A stretch of 37,316 nucleotides of DNA from a virus (Duplodnaviria; Heunggongvirae; Uroviricota; Caudoviricetes). This document shows positions 259 through 33,320 of this stretch, piece by piece. A model generated the notes under the pieces. That model did not search any database and was not told the DNA's origin. It saw only the letters and a program-made list of their open reading frames with translations. The stretch is taken from the IMG/VR virus record IMGVR_UViG_2537561977_000024. One strand, given 5' to 3'. The first letter of the stretch is position 1; each line of letters opens with the position of its first letter. A program made the position numbers and the translations under genes.

Positions 259-267
259 TCGTCTGAC

Positions 268-665: not shown

Positions 666-934
666 TCGTTCCTCCTGACACTGCGTCTATCGAACACATT
701 TTTCGCCAGTGTGGCGTTCAGTAAGATAAAGCCGCTTCGCATTCCATGCTAATATAGGCCAACGCAATTCATATAGCCGTTGATACCTAATGTGATTACA
801 CTAGTAAAATATATTGTTACTTTACTATCGTTTAGGTGCGCTGAATGAATCTGCGCCCTGAATTCTGGTAAAAAACATTATCGTAAATTACCATTTCTTT
901 CAACAGCTTACTAGTAAACAAGAAGTTAGCCTCC

Positions 935-2620: not shown

Positions 2621-2732
2621 AACTGAAGTTGCCCTGAAAATGAAATTTTTTTGCACAACCGCAGAACTTTTCCGCAGGGCATCAGTCTTAATTAGTGCCA
2701 CTGCTTTTCTTTGATGTCCCCATTTTGTGGAG

Positions 2733-2776
2733 CCCATCAACCCCGCCATTTCGGTTCAAGGTTGATGGGTTTTTTG
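2733..2776 (+). terminator. hairpin plus T-run downstream of ybjL, probably the chromosomal side of the prophage junction
   Basis: 10-bp perfect stem cccatcaacc/ggttgatggg followed by ttttttgtt. Confidence 0.5.
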
Positions 2777-2855
2777 TTGCCTGAAATTTAAGCTGTTTAA
2801 AATCATGATGTTAGAAACACTGTTTTTTAACGATGGCGACAAAATGGCGGCAGCG

Positions 2856-3074
2856 TCAAAGAGAGAGCGCCACCTGTCCTGATTTCATTGGATGCGGCTG
2901 AACCGGATTTGACTCTTTTGGCGTTGCAATCGAACGAACAAAAGTTTCATGGGTAACAAAAGTATGGCTGCAGTTAATGTTCTGGCACTGGTTGTAACGC
3001 TCTTTGGTCAATGAAGATACCTGAAAACTGCTGCGAGTATGGGCGGCACTTCCACACAGTGGGCAAATCATCAT
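2856..3074 (-). CDS. ogr: Ogr-family zinc-finger late transcription activator
   Basis: CPLC...HxR...CxNxxC pattern like P2 Ogr / 186 B; start set at internal Met by comparison with the ~72-aa Ogr. Confidence 0.85.
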   Translation of the reverse strand: MMICPLCGSAAHTRSSFQVSSLTKERYNQCQNINCSHTFVTHETFVRSIATPKESNPVQPHPMKSGQVALSL

Positions 3075-3164
3075 TTTTCGAGTTCTCCCCATTTTTGCTA
3101 AATTCACAATAATGATACCGCATTATTCCATTTTGCAAACTTAAAAGTTCTCCATTGCGAAGAA

Positions 3165-4747: not shown

Positions 4748-7700
4748 GCGTCGTATCCCCCCTGATCGCTGTAGTTACTCCTGGCTTTTGCCTTCAGCCT
4801 GCGTTCACGTTCATCAAGCTGGCGGGCCACCTCCCGCGCAATATCCTGCGCACTTTGTCCTGGCTGTGTCTGGATGATGATCTGCGTCGGTGCTTCAATC
4901 CGGTAAATGGGCGGCACAGTAGCTGCACGACTCACCATCGCTTCACCGCCTTTTGCGGGAAGCGCCAAAGGATGCAACGGTGGAAGCTCTGCTGGCGCGG
5001 CAGCAACACCCATCATTCCGGCGACAACGGCAGCCAGTGCAGCTGTATTTCTCCGGCTGGTCACGTTTGCCGGGCCGTTAACAATTTCCGGCCCGTTTTC
5101 ACCGACGATGCCAAACTGCCCGCGCGGGATATAGCCGCCGCTGTCATACATCCCCGCAAAGCCATATCCCCATGACGGAAAATCACCCGATGGCATCATC
5201 ACTTTACCGTCTGCATTCACCGTCGCAGGTTGCTGACGCGTCACGCTTTCCGGCAGTTTCGCCTTTGCAGCCTCTTTACTGACAATGCCGAGTTTCTCCA
5301 GCAACCAGGAAACGCCGGATTTCAGGGAGTCCAGCGGATGCATGACCATATTCAGCCCTTCTGCCAGTGCCTCCCCGAATCGTCGCCCCATTGCCGCTGC
5401 GCTCTGCAGTTCGGCAGAGGTCGACTTAACGGGCGTCAGCAGATCAGTAAACCAGCCCCACAGCGCCTGCACTTTGTCGCCAATCCACTGGAACACGGGC
5501 TTAAGCGGTTCGAACGCTGCACTGATGGGACCTGCCGCCGCTTTGAATCCTTCCACCACGCCACCGAGAAATGCGGTGATGGGTTGCCAGTATTTCCAGA
5601 CAACCAGCGCCACGCCCGCCAGTGCAGTAACCACAAGACCTATCGGACTGAGCAGAGCACCTAACAGACCAGATATGGCATACAGGGCAACGCGCAGCAT
5701 CGCCAGTGGACCAGATGCCAGTACTCGCAGCACCGTGCCTGCGGCGGCCAGTCCACCGCGCAGTACCGCCAGAGGATTCATAAACATCACAGCAACAGCA
5801 CGTAAACCGGATAATCCAGACCGCAAAAGTGCAACCGGCGCACCTGCTACAGTTTTCAGGACATTTTCCGTCAGTGATGCCGTGCGGCGCAAAGACGACA
5901 ACGGCGCAGTAAGTAAACCTGCGGCGTTGCCCGATGAAGCAAGCCCGCGTCGCAGCAGTGCCAGTGGCGCGCCAGCCAGCCAGGACAACGCGCTGCTGGT
6001 TCGAGTTACTGCTGCCGTAACGGAAGATAACGTTTTGATACCCAACACAGAGAATCCCAGACGGATCACTGCCAGCGGCCCCAGCACTGCAGCCAGCGCC
6101 ACCGCTAAGGTGCCGAGGCCCACGGTAACGGCAGCCACCACAGCGGCTACTTTCATCAGTGTGCCCGTCAGTTCCGGGTTAGCTTCCACCCAACGACGCG
6201 ACGCTCCCGTGACGCTTTTCACCATGTACAGAATATCCATCAGCGGCTGGCGCAGCGTTTCGCCCAGGCTGCTGAAGGTGTTCTGCGCTCCGGTTTTGAC
6301 CAGCAACCACTGCGCAGAAAGTGAGTCCTTGTTAATGTCGGATTCTTTCTGCATGGAGCCGAGCGCATCATTGCCCGCTGTCAGTTTTAACTGGCGCTGC
6401 AGTTCCGGCAGGTTGTTTGCCAGTTTCGCCGCGTCATCGCCAAACTCTTTACCAAACAACATGGTCATGGCAGACAGACGTTTATCCTGCGGCAGTGCGT
6501 TCACCTTCTCCAGTACGCGCTGGATAGTTCCCATCGCATCCTTCGTCATCTGCTTTTCAATCACTTCAGGGTTGAGTTTCAGCAGATTCATTCCTTCAAA
6601 GAAACTCTTGCTTTGCATGGTGGCAATAGACAATTCACGCACCATCGCGTTGGCTGCACTGGCTGCAACCTCCGGCGCAGCACCCAGTGTCAGGAAGGTG
6701 GAACCCAGCGCCGCCGCTTTACGATAATCCAGACGATCAGCCACACCGCCCAGGCGTTGCATGACATCAATGATGTCTGCCCCTTTCGACATGGCGTTAT
6801 CATCCAGATAGTTCAGCGCATCACCGAGCTGTTCAATATTGCGGGTAGGGATTTTGTAGAGCTGGGCGATTTTGCCCAGACTTTCTGACAGTTCATCCGC
6901 TGGCAGCTCAAAGGCTGTTGCCGCCTTTGCTGCCGTGCTGGCGAAGGCCAGCAGATCACGTTTCTGGTCTTCCCAGCTGTCGTCAGGGTTTGCGACGTTC
7001 ATGCGCGCACCACCTTCAACCAGTGCAGCGAAATCCACCGCACCGTTTTCCATCGGCAACTGTTCGCTGGCAGCCTTGATGGCATCCTGCATTTCATAAA
7101 AACGTGCAGTGCGGTTGCCATTATCGTCACGCAGACCATTGACCTGCTTTGCCACACCTTTCATGGCATCTTCCATGCTGGTATAGCTTTTTACTGCCGC
7201 CATCACTGGTGCGCCCATTGCCAGCCCTGCAGCCGTGGTGGTGGCTCCGGCACCTGCAATCCGATCCCTTACTTCAAGACGCCTGGCGTAAGCCCCTCGG
7301 GCGGCGTGCATTTTTCGCTGTTGCTCCCCGACACGTCGTAACCTCGCTTCCTGCTCAGAAAGCTGCCTGTTATAACGCATCGTTTCACGGGTAATGCGGG
7401 CCGTCGCACTGGCACCATCATTAGCTGAAATACCAGCACGATAAAGTTCTGCACGCACAAGCGCCGTCTGCTGCTGCAGCTTTTTCTGGCGTTCTTCCAG
7501 GCGCTGAACAGCCAGCCGTTGACGGCCCAGAGCAACAACCTGACGTTGCGAAGGCGGCCCCATCGCTCCCAGTTCCTGACTGAGCAAATTTGCACGCTGG
7601 CGGGCATAGCTCAGCCTGTCGCCTAATTTCTGATTTTCTGCCTGCAGCTTTCGGAAGCTGTCCAGACTGCTCCCGGCCTGATCAAGCTGCTTTATTGCAT

Positions 7701-10144: not shown

Positions 10145-10711
10145 TCAGGGAGATTTATTGTTCTTATTTGCCGGAAATTTTCGATAAATGGTAGAAACGC
10201 CTACATCAAAAATCAGTGCAATACGCTGTCTTGATTCTCCGGCCTCGAGTAAACGCCCAATCTGTGCCCACTGTTCGCTGGTCAACTTAGGACGGCGTCC
10301 ACCTACTCTGCCTTTAGCACGAGCTGCAGCCAGCCCCGCCCTGGTACGTTCAACTATCAGTTCGCGTTCCATTTCAGCCAGGGCACCCATGACATGAAAA
10401 AAGAAACGGCCCATTGGGGTACTGGTATCAATACTGTCAGTCAGGCTTCGGAAATTCACGCCACGCTGGCGCAGCTCTTCTATCAGCGTAACAAGATGCC
10501 GCATACTGCGCCCCAGTCTGTCCAGCTTCCAGACAACCAGCGTGTCTCCTGCCGATAGTGTCCTGAGCAGCTTTTTCAGCCCCGGTCTGTCGGACTTGGT
10601 GCCACTGATTTTATCCTCAAAAATCCGCTCACATCCCGCACAGTTCAGTGCATTGCGTTGCAAATCGGTGTTCTGGTCATTTGTTGACACGCGTACATAG
10701 CCAATAAGCAT
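10145..10711 (-). CDS. Gin/Pin/Cin-family serine DNA invertase
   Basis: N-terminus MLIGYVRVSTNDQNTDLQRNAL... with catalytic Ser and C-terminal HTH; near-identical in pattern to Gin/Pin as recalled. Confidence 0.9.
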   Translation of the reverse strand: MLIGYVRVSTNDQNTDLQRNALNCAGCERIFEDKISGTKSDRPGLKKLLRTLSAGDTLVVWKLDRLGRSMRHLVTLIEELRQRGVNFRSLTDSIDTSTPMGRFFFHVMGALAEMERELIVERTRAGLAAARAKGRVGGRRPKLTSEQWAQIGRLLEAGESRQRIALIFDVGVSTIYRKFPANKNNKSP

Positions 10712-10738
10712 GATCATCCCCCTGAATAAAAACCGGAG

Positions 10739-11236
10739 ATGATGCCAGTTAGCCGTTATCTCTGCATTTTCATAAACGTTCGTTTGGGAGCAGGTGCTCC
10801 AGCTATCGGAATTCCGTTCTTCTGGCCGTCGTCGGCAATGCCGAATACTGTCATGACAGAATGGGCCGATATGGTGTTTTTGAAGTTCAATGGGGCGACG
10901 TTCTCAGCAGCGACATATCCGATACTGGCCCTGGTGCTCCCAGGCCTGACGTTGCCTGACGCTCGCGGCGAATTTCCACGTATCTGGGATGATGGGCGTG
11001 GCGTGGATAACGGGCGTGCATTGCTAAGTTCCCAGATCGCAACCAGCATTGGTCGTTACGTTGGGACCGATGGTAATACAGCTTTTATTGGTATCAATAA
11101 TACTGATACTACGGGTTCCGGATACGCCAGTTGGTCGAGAGTATCAGCAACAAGTACAGGGGTGTTTGGGCAAACAGAATACCAGGGGGTTCGTCCTCGT
11201 AATATCGCATTCAACTTTCTTGTAAGGGCTAAATAA
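10739..11236 (+). CDS. silent alternative tail-fibre C-terminal cassette (Sv'-like)
   Basis: ORF with tail-collar-like motif RGEFPRIWDDGRGVDNGR; opposite strand to H; begins at the left recombination site in frame with H. Confidence 0.65.
   Translation: MMPVSRYLCIFINVRLGAGAPAIGIPFFWPSSAMPNTVMTEWADMVFLKFNGATFSAATYPILALVLPGLTLPDARGEFPRIWDDGRGVDNGRALLSSQIATSIGRYVGTDGNTAFIGINNTDTTGSGYASWSRVSATSTGVFGQTEYQGVRPRNIAFNFLVRAK
10768..10791. repeat. gix-like invertase recombination site (left)
   Basis: Minus-strand TGCTCCCAAACGAACGTTTATGAA; inverted copy of site at 12592-12615; resembles gix/hix dyad. Confidence 0.6.
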
Positions 11237-12604
11237 TGAAACCAGTACTTGACGACAATGGACTGGCTACCTATGCCGGAAATATTCGCTGTTATTACTA
11301 CGATGAATTAACAGGTGAATACACTGGTTGGTCAGATGAATTTATTAATGTAGGTGTGAGCATGCCCGGAAATTCTACAGATATTGACCCAGGAGAAGAT
11401 ATATCGGGCAAAGTGTCAGTATTTAGCGGTGACGGATGGAATTGGCAGGAAGACCATCGAGGCAATACTGTCTATTCAACAGAAGAAGGAGCCGCCAGCG
11501 TAGTTGACTACATCGGTGAGATTAAAGAAGGATTTACCGCAATTGCGCCGGGAACAAAATACGATAAATGGGACGGGGAAAAGTGGGTAACGGATAGTGA
11601 GGCTCAGCACATAGCCGATGTTGCAACCGCCGAAGCGGAAAAACAGGCCAGAATTGACCAGGCCAATAACTACATTAACAGCAGACAATGGCCCGGCAAA
11701 GCCGCTTTAGGCCGCCTGAGTGACGCAGAAAAAGAGCAATATAATCTGTGGTTGGATTATCTCGATGCGCTGGAAGCCGTGGACACCTCCAGTGCACCAG
11801 ATATTAACTGGCCTACTCAGCCTGATAATCGGGAGCAGGCTGAGTAAATGCGGCGCCATCGTATAAATACCCCGACTCAACGTCATCAGGACAATTAACC
11901 CAAACCAACGAGGGGTGGAAACGCCCCTCCGGATCTACATCTACGGTTTCTTCAACGCGAAAGTTTTCTTTGCCTTCAATTTTTTAATTCTTGCCCATGT
12001 CATTTAATCACCACTCAATAATCACAATACCATTTTTACCAGAGCCGGATTTATTACTACTGTTAGCAGCAATCCCACCACCACCGCCCCCATAACCAGT
12101 CGCATCCAGACCCACCCCTGTAGATCCTCGGCCTCCGGGGCCGCCACCGTTGCCGCCGCAATTTGCCGAGTTGGCTGAACCGTCATCCCCCCAACCCAAC
12201 CCCTGATTAACATCTCCGCCAACACCGGCTCCCGACGAACCACCGGATGTTGATGTGCCGCCATACCCATACTGACCACCAGTCGCGGAGAGATAAGAAC
12301 CAAAAGAAGATGACCCACCGGATGCGCCATTACCTGTAGTTACGCCAGCACCAGCAGAGCCAACGGTTACCGTAACGCTTGAAACGTCTGTGAGATCGAG
12401 AAGCAATTTCGAATATCCGCCACCGCCGCCACCGCCCCCGCGCTTTGTTGTATCGGTAGTCGACCCGCCAGACGCTCCACCACCAATTACTGTCACCTGG
12501 CATTTTCGCCCTTGTTGGAGTGCCTCAGGAACGTTCCAGTTAGATACTCCAGGGGTGTTGAAAACAACTATGTTTTGCAGGCCAAAGGCCGATGCTCCTA
12601 AACC
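10780..12604. other. invertible tail-fibre DNA segment (G-segment-like), ~1.8 kb
   Basis: Bounded by inverted gix-like sites; adjacent invertase; two alternative fibre tips in opposite orientations. Confidence 0.6.
11236..11847 (+). CDS. tail fibre assembly chaperone (U'/G-like) for the silent cassette
   Basis: 203-aa ORF immediately after the Sv'-like cassette; position and length typical. Confidence 0.75.
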   Translation: MKPVLDDNGLATYAGNIRCYYYDELTGEYTGWSDEFINVGVSMPGNSTDIDPGEDISGKVSVFSGDGWNWQEDHRGNTVYSTEEGAASVVDYIGEIKEGFTAIAPGTKYDKWDGEKWVTDSEAQHIADVATAEAEKQARIDQANNYINSRQWPGKAALGRLSDAEKEQYNLWLDYLDALEAVDTSSAPDINWPTQPDNREQAE

Positions 12605-13654
12605 AAGGTATGCGAGAAGACCAGCTACATCCTTTCCACTCAAATTGGTAAGCGTATTGTCCAGCGGTTGTTTACCTGCCAGCGCATTAAGCATTGTCGT
12701 GGCAAAGTTCGGATCATTCCCCAGTGCCGCCGCCAGTTCGTTCAGTGTATCCAGTGCAGCAGGTGCAGAACCCACCATTCCTGCAATCGCCGATTTCACA
12801 AAAGCCGTAGTGGCAATCTGTGTATTGTTGACCGACTGCGCCGCCGTGGGGGCTGTTGGCGTTCCGGTGAGTGCCGGACTCGACAACGGTGCTTTTAGTG
12901 CCAGCGCATTGTTAATGGTGGTACTGAAATTCGGATCATTGTTAATGGCTGCGGCTATTTCTTTCAGCGTGTCCAGCGTGGCTGGCGCACCATTAATAAG
13001 GGCCGTCAGTGCCGCCTGTACAAACGCAGTGGTCGCAACCTGCGTGGTATTATTCCCCGCCGCTGGCGTTGGCGCTTTGGGGGTTCCGGTAAATGTCGGG
13101 CTGGCTTTTGGCGCGTACTGTGAATGCGGGTCCGGTGCGGCAAGATGTTTTGCCATCTGATCATCCGCGTACACCTTCAGCTCCAGTGCCTTGTCATCCA
13201 CATACTTGCGGGTTGCCAGCACTACAGCAGGGTCGATTTTCAGGGTGATATTGTCCGTGCTGCTGGTAATCAGCACCATGCGCACGGTCTGAGTGCGCCC
13301 GCTACCTTCAGCCAGTTGCGGCTTATAGCTTTCCGGGCAGTTGCCTACGGCAATCAATGCCCCGGACTCATCAAACAGACCCACTTCACGTATCCACCAA
13401 CCACCCTCATTTTCAGGGATCACCTGTTCAGCAATAATCTGGCTGCTGTTCTGCGGGTCGATATAAAGCATATTCAGCGCAGCCCGGCGTTTCTCATTTA
13501 CCAGTGCCGTCTGCTTTGCGTCCGGCGTCGGCAATGCTCCGCCGCCATCGCCCACCGCCATATGGGTAATTTTTAGCGGCACACCGAGCGCGGCGGCGCT
13601 GGCAAGTTTCGCCGCGCCAATATCCGTCAGCAGGGTATAAAATTTTGTGCTCAT
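12008..13654 (-). CDS. H: tail fibre protein H with glycine-rich C-terminal tip
   Basis: N-terminus MSTKFYTLLTDIGAAKLA... like P2 gpH; C-terminal ~195 aa after the recombination site is Gly/Ser-rich. Confidence 0.85.
   Translation of the reverse strand: MSTKFYTLLTDIGAAKLASAAALGVPLKITHMAVGDGGGALPTPDAKQTALVNEKRRAALNMLYIDPQNSSQIIAEQVIPENEGGWWIREVGLFDESGALIAVGNCPESYKPQLAEGSGRTQTVRMVLITSSTDNITLKIDPAVVLATRKYVDDKALELKVYADDQMAKHLAAPDPHSQYAPKASPTFTGTPKAPTPAAGNNTTQVATTAFVQAALTALINGAPATLDTLKEIAAAINNDPNFSTTINNALALKAPLSSPALTGTPTAPTAAQSVNNTQIATTAFVKSAIAGMVGSAPAALDTLNELAAALGNDPNFATTMLNALAGKQPLDNTLTNLSGKDVAGLLAYLGLGASAFGLQNIVVFNTPGVSNWNVPEALQQGRKCQVTVIGGGASGGSTTDTTKRGGGGGGGGYSKLLLDLTDVSSVTVTVGSAGAGVTTGNGASGGSSSFGSYLSATGGQYGYGGTSTSGGSSGAGVGGDVNQGLGWGDDGSANSANCGGNGGGPGGRGSTGVGLDATGYGGGGGGIAANSSNKSGSGKNGIVIIEW
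12592..12615. repeat. gix-like invertase recombination site (right), inside H coding sequence
   Basis: TGCTCCTAAACCAAGGTATGCGAG; inverted relative to 10768-10791; encodes LGLGA in H matching RLGAGA at the other site. Confidence 0.6.
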
Positions 13655-22095: not shown

Positions 22096-23862
22096 ATGAA
22101 CACCACACTGACACCCGCAGATCTCGATCCCCGTCGGCAGGCCATGCTGCTGTACTTTCAGGGATACCGCGTCGCCCGCATTGCTGAAATGCTGGGCGAG
22201 AAAGTTGCAACCGTTCACAGCTGGAAAAAACGCGACAAGTGGGGTGACTATGGGCCGCTGGATCAGATGCAGCTCACCACCGCCGCACGCTACTGCCAGC
22301 TCATCATGAAGGAGCACAAAGAAGGGAAAGATTTCAAAGAGATTGACCTGCTGGCGCGCCAGTCTGAGCGCCACGCGCGGATCGGCAAGTTTAACAATGG
22401 CGGCAACGAAGCCGACTTAAACCCTAACGTCGCCAACCGCAACAAAGGCCCACGCCGTCAGCCTGAAAAGAATGTTTTCACCGATGAACAGATTGAGAAG
22501 CTGGAAGAAATCTTCCATTCCTCCATGTTCAACTACCAGCGCCACTGGTGGGAAGCCGGAAAAACCAACCGCATCCGCAACCTGCTGAAGTCACGCCAGA
22601 TCGGCGCGACCTTCTATTTTGCCCGTGAAGCCCTGATTGACGCCCTGCTGACCGGACGTAACCAGATTTTCCTTTCCGCCAGTAAGGCACAGGCCCACGT
22701 CTTTAAGCAGTACATCATCGACTTTGCCAAAGAAGTGGAGGTGGAGCTGAAAGGCGATCCGATGGTGCTTCCTAACGGGGCCACGCTTTACTTCCTCGGC
22801 ACCAATGCCCGCACTGCCCAGAGTTACCACGGCAACCTGTATCTGGATGAATATTTCTGGATACCAAAATTCCAGGAACTGCGCAAAGTGGCTTCCGGTA
22901 TGGCTATTCACAAGAAATGGCGACAGACCTATTTTTCCACGCCATCCAGCCTGACACACAGTGCTTATCCGTTCTGGTCCGGTGCACTGTTCAACCGTGG
23001 GCGCAACAAAGCCGATAAGGTGGACATCGACCTGTCCCACAGCAATCTGGCCCCCGGCCTGCTGTGCGCAGACGGGCAATACCGCCAGATAGTCACCGTG
23101 GAAGATGCGGTGCGCGGCGGCTGTAACCTGTTCGACCTCGACCAGCTACGCATGGAGTACAGCCCGGACGAATACCAGAACCTGCTGATGTGCGAGTTTG
23201 TGGACGATCTCGCGTCCGTGTTTCCGCTCAGCGAGCTGCAGGCGTGCATGGTGGACAGTTGGGAAGTCTGGACCGACTTTCATGCACTGGCGCTGCGCCC
23301 GTTTGGCTGGCGCGAAGTGTGGATCGGTTATGACCCGGCAAAAGGTACGCAAAACGGCGACAGCGCCGGATGCGTGGTGGTGGCACCGCCAGCCGTGCCG
23401 GGTGGTAAGTTCCGCATTCTTGAGCGTCACCAGTGGCGCGGGATGGACTTCCGCGCCCAGGCTGACGCCATCAAAAAACTTACCGAACAGTACAACGTGA
23501 CTTATATCGGTATCGACTCAACCGGCGTTGGTCACGGGGTTTACGAGAACGTGAAAGCGTTCTTTCCTGCCGTCCGGGAGTTTGTCTACAACCCCAACGT
23601 TAAAAACGCCCTGGTACTCAAGGCCTACGACATTATCAGCCACCGCCGTCTGGAGTTTGACGCCGGACACACCGACATTGCGCAGTCATTTATGGCAATC
23701 CGTCGCGCCACCACCGCCAGTGGCAACCGCCCGACCTATGAAGCCAGCCGCAGCGAAGAAGCCAGCCACGCCGATCTGGCATGGGCAACGATGCACGCAC
23801 TGTTTAACGAACCGCTGCAGGGCGAATCCGCCAATACCAGCAATATTGTGGAGATTTTTTGA
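22096..23862 (+). CDS. P: terminase large (ATPase) subunit P
   Basis: 588-aa ORF beginning MNTTLTPADLDPRRQAMLLYFQGYRVA like P2 gpP. Confidence 0.9.
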   Translation: MNTTLTPADLDPRRQAMLLYFQGYRVARIAEMLGEKVATVHSWKKRDKWGDYGPLDQMQLTTAARYCQLIMKEHKEGKDFKEIDLLARQSERHARIGKFNNGGNEADLNPNVANRNKGPRRQPEKNVFTDEQIEKLEEIFHSSMFNYQRHWWEAGKTNRIRNLLKSRQIGATFYFAREALIDALLTGRNQIFLSASKAQAHVFKQYIIDFAKEVEVELKGDPMVLPNGATLYFLGTNARTAQSYHGNLYLDEYFWIPKFQELRKVASGMAIHKKWRQTYFSTPSSLTHSAYPFWSGALFNRGRNKADKVDIDLSHSNLAPGLLCADGQYRQIVTVEDAVRGGCNLFDLDQLRMEYSPDEYQNLLMCEFVDDLASVFPLSELQACMVDSWEVWTDFHALALRPFGWREVWIGYDPAKGTQNGDSAGCVVVAPPAVPGGKFRILERHQWRGMDFRAQADAIKKLTEQYNVTYIGIDSTGVGHGVYENVKAFFPAVREFVYNPNVKNALVLKAYDIISHRRLEFDAGHTDIAQSFMAIRRATTASGNRPTYEASRSEEASHADLAWATMHALFNEPLQGESANTSNIVEIF

Positions 23863-24899
23863 TGGGAAAGAGTAAGAAGAACCGAGCTGCGGCGACGAAA
23901 CAGATCCAGCTTAAAAGTCAAACTACAGCCGAAGCATTCAGCTTCGGCGATCCCGTTCCTGTTCTGGACCGCCGTGAACTGCTGGACTATGTGGAATGCG
24001 TACAGATGGACCGTTGGTATGAGCCGCCCGTCAGCTTTGACGGACTGGCGCGCACCTTCCGCGCCGCCGTGCATCACAGTTCCCCGATTGCAGTAAAGTG
24101 CAACATTCTGACCAGTACCTATATCCCTCATCCGCTGCTCAGCCAGCAGGCTTTTTCGCGTTTTGTGCAGGACTATCTGGTATTTGGTAACGCCTACCTG
24201 GAGAAACGCACGAACCGATTCGGTGAAGTTATCGCCCTTGAGCCTGCCCTGGCAAAATACACCCGACGTGGATTAGACCTGGATACCTACTGGTTTGTGC
24301 AATACGGCATGACAACGCAACCGTATCAGTTCACGAAAGGCAGCATTTTTCACCTGATGGAACCGGATATCAACCAGGAGATCTACGGCCTGCCCGGTTA
24401 TCTTTCTGCCATTCCGTCAGCCCTGCTCAACGAGTCCGCCACGCTGTTCCGTCGAAAGTATTACATTAACGGCAGTCATGCAGGCTTCATCATGTACATG
24501 ACCGACGCCGCGCAGAACCAGGAGGATGTAAACAACCTCCGTAACGCGATGAAAAGCGCCAAAGGACCAGGTAACTTCCGCAATCTGTTTATGTACTCGC
24601 CTAACGGCAAAAAGGACGGACTTCAGATCATCCCATTGTCAGAAGTCGCGGCGAAGGATGAGTTTCTGAATATCAAAAATGTCAGCCGCGATGACATGAT
24701 GGCAGTGCACCGTGTGCCACCGCAAATGATGGGGATTATGCCGAATAATGTTGGGGGGTTTGGGGATGTGGAGAAGGCAAGCCGTGTATTCGTCCGAAAT
24801 GAGCTAATGCCACTACAAAAGCGATTACAGGAGATGAATGATTGGCTTGGCAAGGAGGCGATACGGTTTGATACCTACTCGCTAGATATAGCCCCATAA
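23859..24899 (+). CDS. Q: portal protein Q
   Basis: 346-aa ORF overlapping P stop; length like P2 gpQ. Confidence 0.9.
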   Translation: MMGKSKKNRAAATKQIQLKSQTTAEAFSFGDPVPVLDRRELLDYVECVQMDRWYEPPVSFDGLARTFRAAVHHSSPIAVKCNILTSTYIPHPLLSQQAFSRFVQDYLVFGNAYLEKRTNRFGEVIALEPALAKYTRRGLDLDTYWFVQYGMTTQPYQFTKGSIFHLMEPDINQEIYGLPGYLSAIPSALLNESATLFRRKYYINGSHAGFIMYMTDAAQNQEDVNNLRNAMKSAKGPGNFRNLFMYSPNGKKDGLQIIPLSEVAAKDEFLNIKNVSRDDMMAVHRVPPQMMGIMPNNVGGFGDVEKASRVFVRNELMPLQKRLQEMNDWLGKEAIRFDTYSLDIAP

Positions 24900-24903
24900 T
24901 AAG

Positions 24904-24930
24904 AAAAGCCACCGTTTGGTGGCTTTTCTT
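24904..24930. terminator. bidirectional hairpin terminator between Q and the cargo operon
   Basis: aaaagccacc-gttt-ggtggctttt between convergent genes. Confidence 0.6.
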
Positions 24931-24933
24931 CAT

Positions 24934-25674
24934 TTACTCAATAGGTTCAAACTCATCTTGAGGAATCAGCGTCGATTGACAGGCTTGGCTTAGTACCCCT
25001 GATAATTTACATAATAACCGATAGTTATGAGGAGCATCATCGCTAATCTTTTCGACCGTTAAAGTGATTGATTTTGGATCATCCAATAACATCTTCTTGA
25101 TGTCATTACTTAAATACCTAGGGCAGTAACCAACGATTTCAGCTGGTTTATCTGCACGAACGACAACAGCATCCCCATCGTATTCATTTTGAAGATCCAA
25201 GCAAAGACGCAAAATTTGCCCCGGTTTCAATTCAGATACACGAGCATTAGCTAAGCTATTCAAGTAACCAAGTCCATGTAAGAAGAAAAAATGCTCAAAG
25301 TTACCATCAGAATCAAAATCAATTTTTTTGAAAATCTGCAGCTGATCAGTGCTTCGTAAGCCTCCCGAGCGAGCAAGAATATCGATAGGATTTACCTTAT
25401 CTTCTTCAAATCCAAGCCATTTAATGAAACTCGGATACTCTGGACGTCTCGGTGATAAAAGGCGATTTTTAAAAAGAGGAAACAATTCTTCCGATACATA
25501 AGTTTCACGAACATCACTCATGCCGCTAAACTTTGTAAATTTAGAAGATTTAAGAGCACCTTTGGTATACCTGAAAACATACCCCGATTTGCGCTCTTGC
25601 AAGTTACCAACAACATGCCAGTCTCTGGTATCTGGTGCCTGCCATGCGACGTAAACGGAGTTTGTATTAGTCAT
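24934..25674 (-). CDS. HipS-like N-domain fused to C-terminal HIRAN-like domain
   Basis: N-terminal VGNL..FRY...LFPLFKNRLLSP resembles HipA N-subdomain; C-terminal LRLCLDLQNEYDGDAVVVRA...VGYCPRYLS..IKKMLL fits HIRAN consensus; start overlaps kinase stop (ATGA). Confidence 0.6.
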   Translation of the reverse strand: MTNTNSVYVAWQAPDTRDWHVVGNLQERKSGYVFRYTKGALKSSKFTKFSGMSDVRETYVSEELFPLFKNRLLSPRRPEYPSFIKWLGFEEDKVNPIDILARSGGLRSTDQLQIFKKIDFDSDGNFEHFFFLHGLGYLNSLANARVSELKPGQILRLCLDLQNEYDGDAVVVRADKPAEIVGYCPRYLSNDIKKMLLDDPKSITLTVEKISDDAPHNYRLLCKLSGVLSQACQSTLIPQDEFEPIE

Positions 25675-26585
25675 TCTAGTAACCTTCTGCGATTTTCCAT
25701 TACCATTAACGTTGCAAATCTACGTGCACTGTCGGATATACACGATGAAGGCACTTGGTTAAACACATCTGTAATGGAATCTTCTGTTAAAACGCTCAAC
25801 TTACCTAACCAATGGTCGCGAGCGGCAACTCTCCCTTCAACTGCATGTTGAAATGCTTCAACAGTCAGCAAGGGCTTTTTATCAGTTTTTGCTTTGAATA
25901 GCTCAGAGCGAGCTTTTCTTACAAAACATGGGATTTGTCGATTTTTATCTTTAGTATTAAGCCGTTCGTTACGCTCATCATCTAACATCTCCCTTCCTAA
26001 ACTAGCGGCATGATCGTATGTTGGACACAAAAACTGCTCACCAGTTTCATTGTTAAGCATGATTGCCCAATTTTCATGGTGGCGATCTTGATTACTCACA
26101 AGTGCATCGAGCATCAAATATCCACAAAATACATCTGCTGCATTTAGCCCGGTTAGATCATATACACTCGGAGGAGGCTTGATAGATTCCCTATCTAAAC
26201 AACCCAAGACCCTTGTGACAGTGTGTTCTCTGACCCTTACCGGCTTTTCCCCGGCTTGTAAAGGCCCAGGATAATCGAATGTCGAACTGTGAAGCACTTC
26301 ATTTCCCATTACCATCCGGAAACCAGATGGAATGATATTCTGAGTCACCACACCGAATCGACCATTGTATCGCGCCAAATCATAGCTAGCATGTGGAATG
26401 TTAAGCAAATGACATAACTCAGCAGCACACTTTTCAGACCAATGCTCGCCAGTACCTGGCCTAGAGTACTTAAACAACTGCAAATTTACAGTGTCATCGG
26501 AGAAATAGAACCAAAACTTCTCTTTGGTTCCTAACTGTTCAAGATCGTTAGCTACGGGGCTAAGCTCTACCAATTGGTATGGCAT
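25671..26585 (-). CDS. HipA-family Ser/Thr kinase core (HipT-like, lacks HipA N-subdomain)
   Basis: Gly-rich loop LGTKEKF at residues 18-24, catalytic VSNQDRHHENW (D167), PTYDHAAS (D191), with HipA-like spacing. Confidence 0.7.
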   Translation of the reverse strand: MPYQLVELSPVANDLEQLGTKEKFWFYFSDDTVNLQLFKYSRPGTGEHWSEKCAAELCHLLNIPHASYDLARYNGRFGVVTQNIIPSGFRMVMGNEVLHSSTFDYPGPLQAGEKPVRVREHTVTRVLGCLDRESIKPPPSVYDLTGLNAADVFCGYLMLDALVSNQDRHHENWAIMLNNETGEQFLCPTYDHAASLGREMLDDERNERLNTKDKNRQIPCFVRKARSELFKAKTDKKPLLTVEAFQHAVEGRVAARDHWLGKLSVLTEDSITDVFNQVPSSCISDSARRFATLMVMENRRRLLE

Positions 26586-26679
26586 CTGACATCCCTGTTT
26601 AGCGGATTATGAATAAGTTAGGTTCCATTTTATCCAAACATTGTCAAATACCCTAAGATTTATTAGATGATAGAGCGAT

Positions 26680-26697
26680 ACTGTATGTATGTCCAGC
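26680..26697. promoter_or_regulatory. possible LexA box upstream of kinase operon
   Basis: ACTGTATGTATGTCCAGC: CTG-N10-CAG with one canonical CTGTAT half-site; ~100 bp upstream of 26585 start. Confidence 0.3.
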
Positions 26698-26737: not shown

Positions 26738-26756
26738 CTCGTATCCCCGCCACGCC
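26738..26756 (-). other. candidate cos cohesive-end site
   Basis: Minus-strand GGCGTGGCGGGGATACGAG resembles P2/186 cos 19-mers as recalled (first 13 nt match the 186 form). Confidence 0.4.
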
Positions 26757-27142: not shown

Positions 27143-27623
27143 ATGGCTACTACCAACTGTATTACTGTACTTACTGCTCGTGGTTTAACAGAGATTTTGA
27201 ACACAGGGGGAAGCCAAGCATGGAGACTTGACGCCAGCCATGCAGCTAAGCACGAATATTTAGTTTGTGTACAAAATTCGAGAAAGGACTGGGGATCACA
27301 AGAAGCAAAACATCATCATGCTTTTATGATCGGTCGAATCTCGGGAGTAAGCAGGGCTCCAGAAAACCCTAAACGCTGGATCATAAACATCAATTCTTAT
27401 GCTGAAATTGACATCCCAGGACAATGGGATGGCAATCGGAATCCCGTTTCTTATCGCAACCTCAAAGACATTGGCATTGAGGCTGACAAGTTGGAATTTA
27501 AAGCTCTTCCCAAATTAACCCCGACTAATTCGATTGTCGATCAAGCGGGTGATGAGTACGAAGAAGAAGAAGAAAATGTAGTTAAGCCGTTAACACTTCA
27601 GGAGGCAAAAGCAGGGCTAGCCC
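27143..27623 (+). CDS. hypothetical protein, 3' end replaced by IS insertion
   Basis: ORF after 550-bp AT-rich region; acidic DEYEEEEEN linker; reading frame runs into IS left end at 27624; original C-terminus continues after IS at 28927. Confidence 0.5.
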
Positions 27624-28917
27624 CTGAGGGATCCCCAGAAAATTTAGTAAACCATTATCATATTGGTATACCGTTGCTGTAGAACTTTCAGCCCTGCGTC
27701 AAGTGACAGTGTGTTTAGTATGAGTGGAGAATGTCGAATCACATTCTCCGCCAGTTTTAATAACGAGATGACTCGCCTGTGCTTCACTGTATTTGCCTGA
27801 TATTTATGATGTATCCCTTTGTTTTCCAGGCTGAAACCGCTTAACCACATAATGATACTGGCTAATGTTGCGATCAGACTCAATACCGTGACCCGCCCGG
27901 ATGAATGACTGGCACCAAACCGTAGTCCAAATCCCCAGCGAGGATTTTTTTCATCCCTGAAATTTTGCTCAATTTGCATTCTACGGCTGTATAATTTCAT
28001 TACCTGTTTTGGCGAGAACTCAGTACTGTTTGTGAAAATAAACCATGGTGATTTCCCGGCAGTACGAGCTTTAGCCGTCACCGATGGTCTGGTTGCTCTT
28101 TCCTTCGAGCGTTTAAATCTACGACCTTTAGGCTTACTTTTATAAAGATAAAAATGCCCTTCATGTTGTGCATTTTTATCTCGACCCAGCAGGCCTTCAC
28201 CTAAATAAATTGCTGTCGTTGATGCTTTTGTGCCTGAGTCCGACACCTTTTCCCAGCCATTACCAACATTGTAATAATGATTGCCCAGTACCCGGCAAAT
28301 ATAGGTCCAGCCACGGGAGCGGAGCTGTTGGAACCATCGCCCCTGAAAACCGGCATCTGTAATAACAATGACATCAGTCCCGGGGGAAAAGCACTCAGCA
28401 AGCGATTCCAGAAAACGCTCATGTACATCTGCATTCGCTGTCTGTGATGATGGAACGACACAACTCATCAACGGTAAAGAACGCCCGTCACATGCCAGGC
28501 TTGCCCGCAAAAGCTGAAAACGAGAGGCATGATAAGCACTCCAGTCAATGAGTATCACAACACGAGACATTCCCCGCGTAATCTTTTGGGTAATTCGCTG
28601 AAAAATGGTGGAAACCTCATTTTGCAAATGTCGATTCCCCAACAGTCGATCCACCCGCTTTATTTTGTTTTTAACTGATGCCGTACCGGTTAAATGACGC
28701 CCGATACTGGTAAGTGTGAGGGAAGCGCCATTTATTACAGCATTAGTTGCGTCAATCAGTGATTTTTGACGGTAAAGATGCAAAGGGGCCAGTATGTTGT
28801 TAAGGAAATTTTGGCATAATGAACGTGCAGGCATAGTGGTGATCTCCTTGAAATTGTTAGCACAATCAATTAGATCACATCTCACTATGCCTGTCTTGTT
28901 TTCTGGGGATTCCTCAG
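27624..28917. mobile_element. IS10-like insertion sequence (IS4 family)
   Basis: Terminal inverted repeats CTGAGGGATCCCCAGAAAA / CTGAGGAATCCCCAGAAAA; flanked by direct repeat GGCTAGCCC (27615-27623 and 28919-28927). Confidence 0.8.
27644..28834 (-). CDS. IS10-type DDE transposase
   Basis: Motifs KRVDRLLGNRHL, TDAGF, YSRRMQIEQNFRDEK align with IS10 transposase as recalled; start set at MPARS. Confidence 0.85.
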   Translation of the reverse strand: MPARSLCQNFLNNILAPLHLYRQKSLIDATNAVINGASLTLTSIGRHLTGTASVKNKIKRVDRLLGNRHLQNEVSTIFQRITQKITRGMSRVVILIDWSAYHASRFQLLRASLACDGRSLPLMSCVVPSSQTANADVHERFLESLAECFSPGTDVIVITDAGFQGRWFQQLRSRGWTYICRVLGNHYYNVGNGWEKVSDSGTKASTTAIYLGEGLLGRDKNAQHEGHFYLYKSKPKGRRFKRSKERATRPSVTAKARTAGKSPWFIFTNSTEFSPKQVMKLYSRRMQIEQNFRDEKNPRWGFGLRFGASHSSGRVTVLSLIATLASIIMWLSGFSLENKGIHHKYQANTVKHRRVISLLKLAENVIRHSPLILNTLSLDAGLKVLQQRYTNMIMVY

Positions 28918-29827: not shown

Positions 29828-32242
29828 TTAATACAGGTTCCGCCACTTATCATCTTCCCGCAAACGCTGGTTCCGATAGAAGATACGCAGGCCTGCTCCT
29901 GACGGAATACTGCCGCCGCGAAGGAGTAAATCGACCTCTTTCTCGCTACCATCAAATCCTCTGGACTTCAGCTCATAGACGAGCTGCAGTCGCTGATGGT
30001 CTGTAATTCGCTGTTTGTAGTCTTTACGCCGTTTCGGTTTAACCAGGCGTAACCTTGCTGCCAGTTCCCGGCGCTCTTTTTTGCTCATACTGTGCAGGTA
30101 ATCGTGCAACTCATTGTCATCCATGCGAGTAATGTCCGTTCTAGTGTCCCCATCAGCTGATTTATCTTTCTCCTGTTGGTTCAAATTTTCAGCAAGGGGA
30201 CAGTTATTGCCACGAGTCCAAGGGGCGCAAGCGCCCTGGTCGGCTGCCGCCTCCTGAACGTCAACGGCTTTACGAACCATTTTCCACTTCACTGCATGAG
30301 TGCAGATCTTGCCCTCTGCAATAGGTGACCAGATGCCATAAATACGAATGCCGTGATCGCCATAGGCGGTCGGCTCTTCGTTGATTTCATAAGCGGTTCT
30401 GATGAGGTGATATTTACGGGGAACCAGTACGCCGCCCTGCTTCATGATGTAGGTGGCAAAACAACCAGCATCAGCAGCAGCCAGGATGGCATCAAGGCGC
30501 GGGTTATCCAGTACCGGCGCACCTGCTTTTTTGTCCCCCTGTTGCCTTGCCGCCTGACCAGCCAGCAATCGCAGTTCACGGTAAGCCTGACGCCCCGGAA
30601 TGCCAAAGAAGCGGAATTGCTGAACACGATGCAAAGACGCCCAGGCGTTCACGTATTCAGCGTTATCACGCAGAGATTTACCCGTTTCCTTGCTGATCTC
30701 GCCAGCCAGACCACGCCCGTCAATGTTCTTACTGATGTATTTCGCTATGTAGCTTGTCGGCGTTCCTTTGCGCGGGTTAATCAGCTCAGACTTAAAGCGC
30801 GGCCCCGTGTTATTGCCCAGCTCCTCGCGGTCTTCACGGATAGCAAACTTACGCAACAATGCAGTAATGGCGCGGCGGTCTTTTTTGCGCATGAAACACA
30901 ACAGGTGCCAGTGAACTGTGCCGTCGTGATGCGGCTCAGCCACCCGCACGCCATACCAGCGCAACCCGGCTTTGTGCATCGCCTTACGAAATGCAGCAAA
31001 CATACCGACCAGATAATCGCTGCTTTGTCTTACCGTCGCATTTGTCCAGGTCGGGTTGGGCCTGCCGTTATTTAGCGTGGAATGGAAACGTGACGGACAG
31101 GTGATGGTGTAGAAAACGGCGCAGTCACCGCGCATTTCCGCGATAAGCTCCAGACCTTTAACACAGGCCATCATCTCATTGCGGCGATGCGCAGGGTTGC
31201 TGCTGCTGGCGTTTACCACATCCTCCATGTCCAGCGTGTCGCCGTCTTCGTTCACCAGTTCATGAGAACGGAAAAACTCCAGCGACTTACGGCGCTGCTC
31301 ACGTTTATGCAACACGGCTTCATAGCTGACATAGGGAGATGCTTTTTTGCTGACAAGGCAGACAGCACGCAACTGCTCTTCCCGCCATTCGCAACGCATC
31401 TTCCATAATTTCCGATACCACCAGTCGGCGCACAACATACGCGCCAGCGAACCCGGAATGAGTTCATAGGGCACGGGTTTACGGCGGTTTCTTTTCCGAC
31501 GGAGTTGCTCAAACGCAGGCGGGATTACATCCAGACGCAGGGTTTCCGCTGCCACCCTTTCCCATGTATTGCGGATTTCTTCTGGCTTAACGTCATCGGT
31601 GGCATACAAATCGCCACAAGCGGCATCAAGGCACATACTCATATGCGCAGCTACCAGGGTGGACAGGCGTTTCACCTGATCCTGACTCATTTCAGGCAGG
31701 ATCAGCAGGCCGTCCAGCCCTTCATGGCTTGCCATAAAGCGAAAAGATGCAGATAGCTGACTGTCGCGTACATGCTCCAGTCGTTCCAGACATGGCTTAA
31801 TCGTCTCACGTAAATAGCGGGAATAAGCCTTTGGCCTGCCAAGGCTGCTGAAGTATTCAATACGTTGCATCAGCGGCTTGCTGATATGGGAAGGCTGGGC
31901 GTTGACGTCCGCCAGAATGACCATATCCGGATTAAAACGCTGCTGCTCATGCACCAGCTTTGCCCGACTAATGAGCTTATCCTGTTCCATTTCGCGCTGG
32001 ACAGGATCACGGGATTCATTAAAGAAATAACGCTCCCAGACCTGATCACTCAGCGCCTCACGGCGCAGCTGTTCCTGCTCGTTATCGGCAGCGTACAGAG
32101 TGATCAGGTTTGAAAGCGTAGAAACCGGCGCAACTTCCACCGGGTCCAGATAAGGGTTAATGGCCTTTTTCGGGCTGTTCCATGAGAACGATGCGGCAGC
32201 TTCGTTAAAGCCGCAGCAGTTGTTCATATCGGCATGACTCAT
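29828..32242 (-). CDS. A: rolling-circle replication initiator A
   Basis: 804-aa ORF in position of P2/186 gene A; start coupled to dam stop. Confidence 0.88.
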
Positions 32243-33096
32243 GCACGTACTCCGTACACGGCAGAACTATCCACGCCACGCGAATAATCAAATCCCACCC
32301 AGCAGCGCGGCCCGGAAACAGCAATGATTTCTGTTGCTGATTTACCCTCGCCAGCTGCCACACCGATGCTGCGTTTTGCCTTGATGTAGTGGTGAGTAAA
32401 ATTGCGATACAGCGAACGGATCAGGGATGTGTCACTGTTAGAAACAATGACCGGATGTCCTTCTGATGACCGATGTTCAAGAACAGATGCCAGGTGATAC
32501 TGGTCATCTTCAGTGAAGCCGTCAGTGTGATAGCCGGAAAACGTACCGTCATACGGCGGATCGCAATACACCACATCCCCCGCCTTCAACATCGCCAGCG
32601 TTTCATCAAAGCTGGCGCAGATAAACGTTGCTCGCTGGGCCTTTTCTGCAAATGCGCGAATTTCTTTTTCAGGGAAATACGGATTTTTATAATTACCGTA
32701 GGGAATGTTGAAATGCCCGCTCTTGTTATAGCGACATAAACCACGGTAACCGTGACGATTGAGATACAGGAAATATACCGCTTTCATGAAATCAGTAATT
32801 TCAGTGGAGTAATTAAACTCCTGCCTTATGTTGTAATAAGCCACCTCCCTGTTTGCGATCTCAAATAAAACTCTGGCGCGAGATATAAACGATTCACAAT
32901 CAGCGGCAACCTTTTTATAGAGGTTGATTAAATCAGGATTAATATCCGCAACCAGATAGCTGGGGTAATCCGTCTCCATCATCACAGCACAGGAACCCGC
33001 GAAAGGTTCAACCAGTCGCGGGCCAGCAGGAAGGTGTTTTTTCAGTTCGGACATAATGGCGGTTTTATTTCCCGCCCATTTCAGGATAGTGCTCAT
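32239..33096 (-). CDS. dam: Dam-like N6-adenine DNA methyltransferase
   Basis: LKWAGNK N-terminus, FAGS, DPPY motifs align with E. coli Dam; start set at [11 protein letters not shown]. Confidence 0.85.
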
Positions 33097-33320
33097 ACAG
33101 CACCTCCGTTGTAATGTTTGCCTTTCAGCTCTGCGATTTCCTGGCAGGTAATGCAAAGCTGCACTCCCGGAATGGCGCGGCGTCGTGCTGGCGGAATTGG
33201 CGCTTCACATTCAATACAAAGCACGCGAGACACGCCCGGTGTTTTGGCACGGGCAGCACGAATATGGCGCTGGCGTTCTTCTTCAACGCGCTGCTGTACG
33301 AGATCCATTGCATCAGCCAT
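33093..33320 (-). CDS. TraR/DksA-family C4 zinc-finger protein
   Basis: CIECEAPIP...CITCQ four-Cys pattern in 75-aa ORF. Confidence 0.7.
   Translation of the reverse strand: MADAMDLVQQRVEEERQRHIRAARAKTPGVSRVLCIECEAPIPPARRRAIPGVQLCITCQEIAELKGKHYNGGAV

What the first reader, a model, noticed from the sequence alone, without database searches (positions are those of the whole stretch)
24934..26585. Split HipA-like kinase with a HipS-like domain fused to HIRAN, in the portal-proximal cargo slot
Two translationally coupled minus-strand genes (ATGA overlap at 25671-25674) sit between portal gene Q and the cos-like site, in DNA that looks more AT-rich than the phage backbone. The upstream gene (304 aa) has HipA kinase-core signatures in the right spacing: Gly-rich loop LGTKEKF (res 18-24), catalytic VSNQDRHHENW (D167) and YDHAAS (D191). 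It lacks the ~110-aa N-subdomain of full-length HipA. The downstream gene (246 aa) starts with a segment resembling that missing subdomain (VGNL..FRY..LFPLFKNRLLSP versus HipA VGEL..FKY..FNFFDNLLP) and ends in a HIRAN-like domain, a fold known to bind ssDNA 3' ends. Relative to HipBST the order is permuted (kinase first), no HipB-like HTH gene is present, and the HipS-like part carries a DNA-end sensor. Inference: a kinase toxin restrained by the HipS-like domain and released when HIRAN senses phage DNA ends or replication intermediates, i.e. a prophage-borne abortive-infection/defence module. Split HipA homologues with accessory domains have been catalogued bioinformatically, but I am not aware of experimental work on this architecture.
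Basis: partly seen in the sequence, partly recalled or inferred. Interest (0 to 1): 0.85.

Follow-up and report, generated by a model that had tools for sequence, protein, structure and literature searches.

The report
Prophage hipIN kinase–HIRAN cassette
This is an intact copy of the already catalogued but experimentally untested "hipIN" gene pair (a HipA-type protein kinase plus a partner that joins a kinase-blocking HipS-like domain to a DNA-end-binding HIRAN domain), carried as accessory cargo in the known defence hotspot of a P2-like E. coli prophage.

Summary

It is not new. Gerdes et al. 2021 named this architecture hipIN and proposed the same model: HIRAN senses phage DNA ends, the kinase is activated, and infection aborts. 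PADLOC models it as candidate system PDC-M03. Rousset et al. 2022 list these exact proteins in the P2 gpA-gpQ hotspot table. I found no experimental test of hipIN. The anatomy is confirmed, the defence mechanism remains a plausible inference, and the finding is a reasonable experimental target of moderate interest.

The parts
25671..26585 (-). hipI: 304-aa HipA-family Ser/Thr kinase core without N-subdomain-1 (RefSeq WP_001146828.1)
   Evidence: ORF. PADLOC PDC-M03A E=2e-122. Pfam HipA_C E=3.6e-4, below threshold. AF2 model pLDDT 85. Foldseek hits: CtkA 1e-9, HipA 7e-7, HipT 9e-5. Family profile vs PDB: CtkA E=6e-4. phrog_8728.
26514..26534 (-). Gly-rich (ATP-binding) loop LGTKEKF, residues 18-24, close to the N-terminus
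   Evidence: L18, G19, T20, K21, E22, K23 and F24 are invariant in 28 homologues. The position near the N-terminus is as described for HipI kinases.
26067..26099 (-). Catalytic motif VSNQDRHHENW (D167, N172)
   Evidence: Invariant N165-W173. It aligns with HipA 'GATDGHAKNF' (D309) in hhalign and with CtkA 'GNFDRHNGNW'.
26001..26018 (-). Mg-binding motif YDHAAS (D191)
   Evidence: Invariant Y190-S195. It aligns with HipA 'YDIIS' (D332) and with CtkA 'FDCGS'.
25671..25674 (-). ATGA stop/start overlap of hipI and hipN (translational coupling)
   Evidence: Sequence. An overlap of 4-14 nt is kept in all 6 homologous cassettes examined.
24934..25674 (-). hipN: 246-aa HipS-like + HIRAN protein (RefSeq WP_000185756.1)
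   Evidence: ORF. PADLOC PDC-M03B E=7e-93. AF2 model pLDDT 86.8, pTM 0.81. phrog_8026.
25330..25674 (-). HipS-like domain of HipN (about residues 1-115)
24991..25296 (-). HIRAN domain of HipN (residues 127-228)
26667..26695 (-). Promoter-like site TGGACA-17-TATCAT upstream of hipI
   Evidence: 10 of 12 consensus matches, the best in the region. This is a consensus match only. The number of such sites in the region is not above the shuffle expectation.
24901..24930 (.). 13-bp bidirectional terminator hairpin between the stop codons of Q and hipN
   Evidence: Free energy -20.4 and -21.0 kcal/mol on the two strands, z about -7. It occupies the position of the annotated tQ terminator of P2.
26738..26756 (-). 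cos-like 19-mer GGCGTGGCGGGGATACGAG
   Evidence: 14/19 match to P2 cos. 43 bp at 81% identity to the P2 right end. Identical and 152-153 bp upstream of hipI in E. coli and Klebsiella copies. Function as cos is inferred, not shown.
23859..24899 (+). Portal gene Q of the P2/186-like prophage (left boundary of the slot)
   Evidence: ORF. RefSeq annotation 'phage portal protein' in the identical locus. Similarity to the 3' end of P2 Q.

Best explanation
The two genes are a hipIN module, carried as non-essential cargo in the gpA-gpQ (cos-proximal) defence hotspot of a P2/186-like prophage.

Shown: HipI is a HipA-family kinase core with all catalytic residues intact but without HipA's N-subdomain-1. 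HipN supplies that missing subdomain as a HipS-like fold and carries a HIRAN domain. The genes overlap, are co-conserved and move together.

Inferred from the known 3'-end binding of HLTF HIRAN and from the conserved N-x-Y-D motif: the HIRAN domain binds free DNA 3' ends or ssDNA that appear during infection by another phage, such as linear genome ends, replication or recombination intermediates, or degraded host DNA. This binding relieves the inhibition.

Inferred from HipA (GltX) and HipT (TrpS): the active kinase phosphorylates an essential translation factor, probably an aminoacyl-tRNA synthetase. Growth stops and the infection aborts. The lysogen population and the resident prophage are thereby protected.
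For: Identity of the parts. Published description of exactly this architecture and hypothesis: PMC8262856. HipS neutralises HipT by occupying the N-subdomain-1 position and blocking the Gly-rich loop: PMC10627512. Defence context: the interval between gpA and gpQ is the experimentally validated P2 defence hotspot (PMC9122126), and these exact proteins are listed there. The neighbouring sub-slot holds SIR2+HerA in another strain, and Table S5 rows list DarT/Macro or Mrr_cat genes in the same locus. Mobility as an autonomous two-gene unit: a Klebsiella P2-like prophage, an E. coli island, V. cholerae, Pseudomonas and Shewanella islands, and PM2-like Vibrio prophages. Both genes are functional: dN/dS is 0.04-0.05 and the gene overlap is kept in 6 of 6 cassettes. 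Its own promoter-like site and terminator are present. The family is large, with 314 clusters at E<=1e-30.
Against: No experiment on hipIN was found. A distantly related fused kinase (pFR108, 'Exonuclease + HipA') from the same P2 hotspot appears in Rousset's table of 'additional tested systems' (S2B), not among the validated ones. In full-length HipA the same N-subdomain is part of an active enzyme, so the HipS-like domain need not be inhibitory. No residue equivalent to the inhibitory Trp65 of HipS could be mapped here. The prophage's own replication and packaging also make DNA ends, and no self-protection mechanism is evident. The kinase substrate is unknown, and the closest solved structure is CtkA, not an aaRS-targeting HipA. 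In V. cholerae the pair sits among ordinary chromosomal genes, so not every copy lies in a defence island.
Confidence: 0.5

Rival explanations
1. It is an addiction or stabilisation toxin-antitoxin module. HipI is a toxin and HipN a conventional antitoxin. The pair's main effect is to stabilise the prophage or island that carries it, or to induce persistence. The HIRAN domain replaces HipB's DNA binding for tethering or autoregulation and is not an infection sensor.
For: HipBA and HipBST are classical type II TA systems. The cassette is found on many mobile elements. There is no separate DNA-binding regulator, so HIRAN is the only DNA-binding part.
Against: HIRAN is known as a DNA-end binder, not a sequence-specific binder (literature cited), which is poorly suited to operator binding. 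The V. cholerae copy sits among chromosomal housekeeping-type genes. Fused HipL forms, with kinase, HipS-like and HIRAN in one chain, cannot work through a labile antitoxin. The position in a validated defence hotspot favours defence.
Confidence: 0.2
2. HipN is a targeting or activating subunit, not an inhibitor. The HipS-like domain completes the kinase as N-subdomain-1 does in HipA. HIRAN recruits the holoenzyme to DNA ends, where it phosphorylates DNA-end-bound phage or host proteins (SSB, recombinases, terminase, replication proteins). This would block phage replication without killing the cell, or modulate repair and SOS.
For: In HipA the N-subdomain is part of the active enzyme, and HipS plus HipT together reproduce the HipA fold. 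The HipS-like domain is even more conserved than HIRAN (72% vs 59% mean column identity), as expected for an obligate partner. Fused HipL forms exist. A different ssDNA-activated bacterial immune kinase (CapK) shows that direct DNA activation of a kinase occurs.
Confidence: 0.15
3. It is a phage-benefit regulator with no role in defence. The kinase pair adjusts host physiology or the prophage's own lysis-lysogeny, replication or packaging. This would resemble kinase modules that control prophage activation, with the position next to cos reflecting a role at the phage's own DNA ends.
For: The cos-like site is conserved 152-153 bp from hipI in E. coli and Klebsiella. A prophage kinase-phosphatase module (KKP) controls both lysogeny and defence (abstract).
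Against: The cassette is absent from P2 itself and from most P2-like prophages: P2 has only 186 bp at this position, and 21 of 5426 E. coli genomes carry this allele. It also occurs away from any cos site or phage. So it has no core phage role.
Confidence: 0.1
4. It is a decaying or non-functional remnant.
For: Pfam and NCBIfam kinase hits are weak.
Against: Both genes are full length. All catalytic residues are invariant. dN/dS is 0.04-0.05. The models are confident.
Confidence: 0.02

Closest known systems
[quoted passage not shown]
   Same: A short kinase (279-321 aa in that paper, 304 aa here) lacks N-subdomain-1 and has its Gly-rich loop at the N-terminus. [quoted passage not shown] There is no HTH partner. 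The same abortive-infection hypothesis was proposed.
   Different: Nothing architectural differs. Only 14 hipIN modules were in their tree. I could not confirm that this E. coli allele was among them, nor place it in their phylogeny. The prophage context next to cos was not discussed there.
PADLOC-DB v2 phage defence candidate PDC-M03 (A + B)
   Same: Both proteins match the PDC-M03A and PDC-M03B models end to end (E=2e-122 and 7e-93), and the genes are adjacent.
   Different: PDC is a 'candidate' label. I found no validation data.
HipBST of E. coli O127:H6 and Legionella pneumophila
   Different: HipBST has three genes in the order B-S-T with an HTH protein, HipB. Here there are two genes, kinase first, no HipB, and the HipS-like part is fused to HIRAN. 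HipI is closer in structure to CtkA than to HipT.
HipL kinases, including the P2-hotspot 'Exonuclease + HipA' system pFR108 of Rousset et al. 2022
   Same: The domains come in the same order: kinase core followed by a HipS-like domain (then HIRAN in HipL as described by Gerdes et al. 2021; the stored pFR108 sequence is cut before that point). pFR108 comes from the same P2 hotspot.
   Different: HipL is a single polypeptide, and pFR108 has an added DEDD-type exonuclease gene. It is only distantly related in sequence (pairwise E=9e-9 over the catalytic segment). pFR108 is listed among 'additional tested systems', not among validated ones.
P2 old / tin and other cargo of the P2 gpA-gpQ hotspot
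   Same: It is non-essential, AT-rich, independently transcribed cargo next to cos in P2-like prophages. The hotspot holds many validated anti-phage systems.
   Different: In P2, old and tin lie on the gpA side of cos. hipIN lies on the Q side, between the Q terminator and cos, where P2 has only 186 bp. The proteins are unrelated.

Membership tests
hipIN (HipI/HipN, Gerdes et al. 2021) | Short HipA-homologous kinase lacking N-subdomain-1, with the Gly-rich loop near the N-terminus | tested here: met
   304 aa with the loop at residues 18-24. The model matches the HipA, HipT and CtkA kinase cores. No N-subdomain is present in the chain.
hipIN (HipI/HipN, Gerdes et al. 2021) | Conserved core kinase motifs (Gly-rich loop, catalytic motif, Mg-binding motif, activation loop) | tested here: met
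   G19-F24, N165-W173 (D167, N172) and Y190-S195 (D191) are invariant in 28 homologues. They are in register with HipA D309 and D332. The activation loop was not mapped separately.
hipIN (HipI/HipN, Gerdes et al. 2021) | [quoted passage not shown] | tested here: met
hipIN (HipI/HipN, Gerdes et al. 2021) | Phylogenetic placement of the kinase in the HipI subclades of main clade XI | not tested
   The reference HipI sequences (Table S1 of PMC8262856) were not available as text.
hipIN (HipI/HipN, Gerdes et al. 2021) | Toxin/antitoxin behaviour (kinase toxic, HipN neutralises it) | not testable with these tools
   This needs expression experiments. It was not demonstrated for any hipIN in the literature I searched.
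PADLOC PDC-M03 | Adjacent genes matching the PDC-M03A and PDC-M03B HMMs | tested here: met
   E=2.1e-122 (residues 2-304) and E=6.8e-93 (residues 1-244).
HipBST tripartite TA | Three genes, hipB (HTH), hipS and hipT, in that order | tested here: not met
   No HTH gene is present. The ORFs upstream have no Pfam hit. The kinase gene comes first, and the HipS-like part is fused to HIRAN.
Canonical HipBA type II TA | Full-length HipA (about 440 aa, N-subdomain-1 in cis) with the HipB repressor | tested here: not met
   The kinase is 304 aa and lacks the N-subdomain. There is no HipB. NCBIfam HipA-family models are not matched.
HIRAN domain (PF08797) | Profile match above the curated threshold, and the HIRAN fold | tested here: met
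HIRAN domain (PF08797) | A functional DNA 3'-end binding pocket | tested here: inconclusive
   In the N-x-Y-D-x-x-A motif, N163, D166 and A169 are invariant, and the motif aligns with 'NQYDDNA' of lp_0118. The mapping to the HLTF pocket residues is by motif register and my own knowledge. No binding assay was possible.
Cargo of the P2 gpA-gpQ defence hotspot (Rousset et al. 2022) | Located between replication gene A and portal gene Q of a P2-like prophage | tested here: met
   Q is at 23859-24899 and gpA at 29828-32242. The RefSeq context agrees. WP_001146828 and WP_000185756 are listed in Table S5.
Cargo of the P2 gpA-gpQ defence hotspot (Rousset et al. 2022) | Demonstrated anti-phage activity | not testable with these tools
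   hipIN is not among the validated or tested systems in Table S2.

The most novel reading that the evidence does not exclude
hipIN is a true abortive-infection system in which a HIRAN domain acts as an innate sensor of free DNA 3' ends and directly de-represses a HipA-family kinase. This would be the first kinase-toxin immunity switched by DNA-end recognition, and the first assigned function for a bacterial HIRAN domain. In P2-like phages it occupies a separate cargo sub-slot on the Q side of cos that varies independently of the old/tin side.
Probability: 0.35. Interest if true: 0.7.

Novelty: already known. Interest (0 to 1): 0.4.

Why it matters
HipA-family kinases are best known from persistence research. 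Whether their many split and fused relatives are immune effectors is open. hipIN offers a simple two-protein system for testing whether a eukaryote-type DNA-end reader (HIRAN, as in the DNA-repair helicases HLTF and Rad5) serves as an infection sensor coupled to a translation-blocking kinase. This copy is a convenient E. coli starting point: it is intact, has its own putative promoter and terminator, and sits in a hotspot where native-promoter cloning has worked for other systems. The idea itself is already in the literature, so the value lies in the experiment, not in the discovery.

Tried and rejected
- Single-sequence searches of both proteins against PDB gave only noise or a weak CtkA hit.
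- NCBIfam gave no usable hit for either protein.
- A profile of the HipS-like domain alone found only gamma-crystallin noise in PDB sequences. A profile of the HIRAN part found only lp_0118 at E=0.87. Fold comparison was therefore needed.
- hhalign of the family profiles against single-sequence E. coli HipA gave the expected register but no significance (probability about 1%). I use it only for residue correspondence.
- Megablast found no copy in the phage genome collection. tblastn found only distant Vibrio and Clostridioides relatives.
- Several literature hits for 'HIRAN' were the surname Hirano.
- The CapK/CapS DNA-damage-activated kinase belongs to the anti-sigma-factor kinase family. I rejected it as a relative and keep it only as a functional analogy.
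- pFR108 of Rousset et al. looked like a direct test of this system. It is a distantly related fused kinase with an exonuclease partner, so its listing among 'additional tested systems' says little about hipIN.
- I looked for a HipB-like gene among the small upstream ORFs and in the Klebsiella copy. None has an HTH or any Pfam hit.
- The terminator scan missed the Q/hipN hairpin. Direct folding confirmed it.

Full report
**Observation**

The window is an E. coli chromosomal segment. It carries a P2/186-like prophage beside ybjL.
- On the minus strand, a 304-aa ORF (25671..26585) and a 246-aa ORF (24934..25674) overlap by ATGA.
- They lie in DNA of 39-43% GC, against 54-60% for the phage late genes.
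- Portal gene Q ends at 24899.
- A 13-bp hairpin at 24901-24930 (free energy about -20 to -21 kcal/mol on both strands, z about -7) separates the converging stop codons of Q and the 246-aa gene. It occupies the place of P2's annotated terminator tQ.
- A promoter-like site (TGGACA-17-TATCAT, 26695-26667) lies upstream of the 304-aa gene.
- A cos-like 19-mer lies at 26738-26756. Its flank is similar to the P2 right end.

In P2 itself only 186 bp separate Q from cos, and old and tin lie on the other side of cos.

**What the proteins are**

Sequence profiles alone are uneven.
- HIRAN passes Pfam's threshold (51.3 vs 24.7 bits).
- HipA_C (20.7 vs 30.5 bits) and Couple_hipA (16.3 vs 22.5 bits) do not.
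- NCBIfam gives nothing useful.

I built family alignments from database homologues and predicted both structures (pLDDT 85 and 86.8).

The kinase:
- The model matches CtkA (E=1e-9), E. coli and Shewanella HipA, and HipT of Legionella and E. coli.
- The family profile finds CtkA in PDB sequences at E=6e-4.
- The Gly-rich loop (G19-F24), the catalytic segment (N165-W173, with D167 and N172) and the Mg-binding segment (Y190-S195, with D191) are invariant in 28 homologues that go down to 57% identity.
- These segments align in register with HipA D309 and D332.
- The chain has no counterpart of HipA's N-subdomain-1.

The partner:
- Couple_hipA is the best Pfam family for 15 of 16 family members, always below threshold.
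- In the HIRAN motif Q-N-x-Y-D-x-x-A, N163, D166 and A169 are invariant.

**Evidence that the pair is a functional, mobile unit**
- dN/dS between the E. coli copy and a Klebsiella copy at 87-90% identity is 0.04-0.05 for both genes.
- A 4-14 nt gene overlap is kept in all six cassettes examined.
- The same kinase-then-HIRAN pair, without any conserved third gene or HTH gene, occurs in many settings:
  - the same slot of a Klebsiella P2-like prophage
  - an E. coli island with an archaeo-eukaryotic-type (AEP) primase
  - among ordinary genes in V. cholerae
  - next to integrase or resolvase genes in Pseudomonas and Shewanella
  - PM2-like (Vinavirales) prophages of Vibrio cyclitrophicus
- A full-library profile search finds 314 clusters (at 50% identity) at E<=1e-30, and most of the 150 best hits span both domains.
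- In E. coli, 21 of 5426 complete genomes carry this allele at 99% identity or more, all on chromosomes. The three loci I opened all show the portal-adjacent position.
- The other side of cos varies independently. It holds a 179-aa unknown ORF here, and a SIR2 + HerA pair in strain 89-3156.

**Comparison with what is known**

Gerdes, Baerentsen and Brodersen (2021, PMC8262856) described this architecture and called it hipIN. HipI is a short kinase lacking N-subdomain-1. [quoted passage not shown] They proposed that HIRAN recognises the DNA ends of invading phages or of replication intermediates, and that this activates the kinase and causes abortive infection.

PADLOC-DB models the pair as phage defence candidate PDC-M03, and both proteins match end to end. 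Rousset et al. (2022, PMC9122126) defined the gpA-gpQ interval as the P2 defence hotspot. Their Table S5 lists WP_001146828 and WP_000185756, the very proteins of this window, in that hotspot. Their Table S6 shows a 'HIRAN-kinase' pair in a Vibrio prophage hotspot. A 2025 paper notes HipA + HIRAN clusters next to diDNase genes in Gram-positive bacteria and says the link remains to be investigated.

I found no paper that tests hipIN, HipN or PDC-M03 experimentally. The library does not cover all journals, so this is not proof of absence.

**Mechanism**

Shown here:
- the domain identities
- the intact catalytic residues
- the coupling and co-mobility of the two genes
- the hotspot location

Inferred:
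1. HipN's HipS-like domain docks on HipI where HipA has N-subdomain-1, and holds the Gly-rich loop out. This is by analogy with HipS-HipT, where HipS is the antitoxin and inserts Trp65 near the active site.
2. HIRAN binds free 3' ends or ssDNA and relieves the inhibition.
3. The kinase then phosphorylates an essential translation factor, as HipA does with GltX and HipT with TrpS.

Fused HipL forms exist, with kinase, HipS-like and HIRAN in one chain. This argues for an allosteric switch and against a labile antitoxin.

Open points:
- No equivalent of Trp65 could be mapped.
- The substrate is unknown.
- The prophage's own replication and packaging make DNA ends too.
- A distant fused relative from the same hotspot (pFR108) is listed among 'additional tested systems', not among validated ones.

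Rivals are a plain addiction TA, a DNA-end-targeted kinase in which HipN activates the enzyme, and a phage-benefit regulator. A decayed remnant is excluded.

**Verdict**

The functional interpretation is plausible but untested, and it matches a hypothesis published in 2021. The finding is already known as a catalogued candidate, so I score interest at 0.4. It is a good, well-defined experimental target but not a discovery.

Noticed in passing
window 27624-28917: An IS4-family insertion sequence (transposase 27644..28885 on the minus strand; NCBIfam IS4 family, 360 bits) lies in the gpA-side part of the hotspot. Otherwise identical prophages (L017, L001) lack it. About 10 bp of target is duplicated. 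It replaces the last codons of the neighbouring 179-aa ORF.
   Followed up: partly
window 27143-27682 (+): A 179-aa ORF of unknown function (phrog_37247; no Pfam or PADLOC hit) occupies the cos-to-gpA sub-slot. In strain 89-3156 the same position holds a SIR2_2 + HerA(DUF87) pair (L016 7248-10147). The ORF may therefore be another defence candidate.
   Followed up: partly
window 26738-26756; L014 7831-7849; L016 and L017 6805-6823: The cos-like 19-mer GGCGTGGCGGGGATACGAG is identical in E. coli and Klebsiella prophages that carry hipIN, and always lies 152-153 bp upstream of the hipI start. It differs from P2 cos in 5 of 19 positions, four of them in the last 7. The cargo lies on the Q side of cos, where P2 has only 186 bp. 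The hotspot therefore has two independently varying sides.
   Followed up: partly
window 10145-11847: A serine invertase gene (10145..10717 on the minus strand; Resolvase + HTH_7) lies next to plus-strand tail-fibre and tail-fibre-assembly cassettes (10739..11847), downstream of tail-fibre gene 12008..13654. This looks like an invertible host-range segment.
   Followed up: no
L018 (Vibrio phage 10N.222.46.E12_PE001) 11590-13304: A HipA_C + HIRAN gene pair (37% identical kinase) sits next to the integrase of 14-kb PM2-like (Vinavirales) temperate phages of Vibrio cyclitrophicus. The same cassette type is therefore cargo of tailless phages as well.
   Followed up: partly
L004-L006 (E. coli, 71% identical hipIN variant) 6001-7663: A second E. 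coli hipIN allele lies outside P2 prophages. It sits between a two-partner-secretion/haemolysin-type operon and, in L005 (gene not called in L004 and L006), an AEP-primase gene, which suggests a different island or satellite carrier.
   Followed up: no
window 32239-33156 (-): A D12-class N6-adenine DNA methyltransferase gene lies in the early region of the prophage, directly upstream of replication gene A.
   Followed up: no
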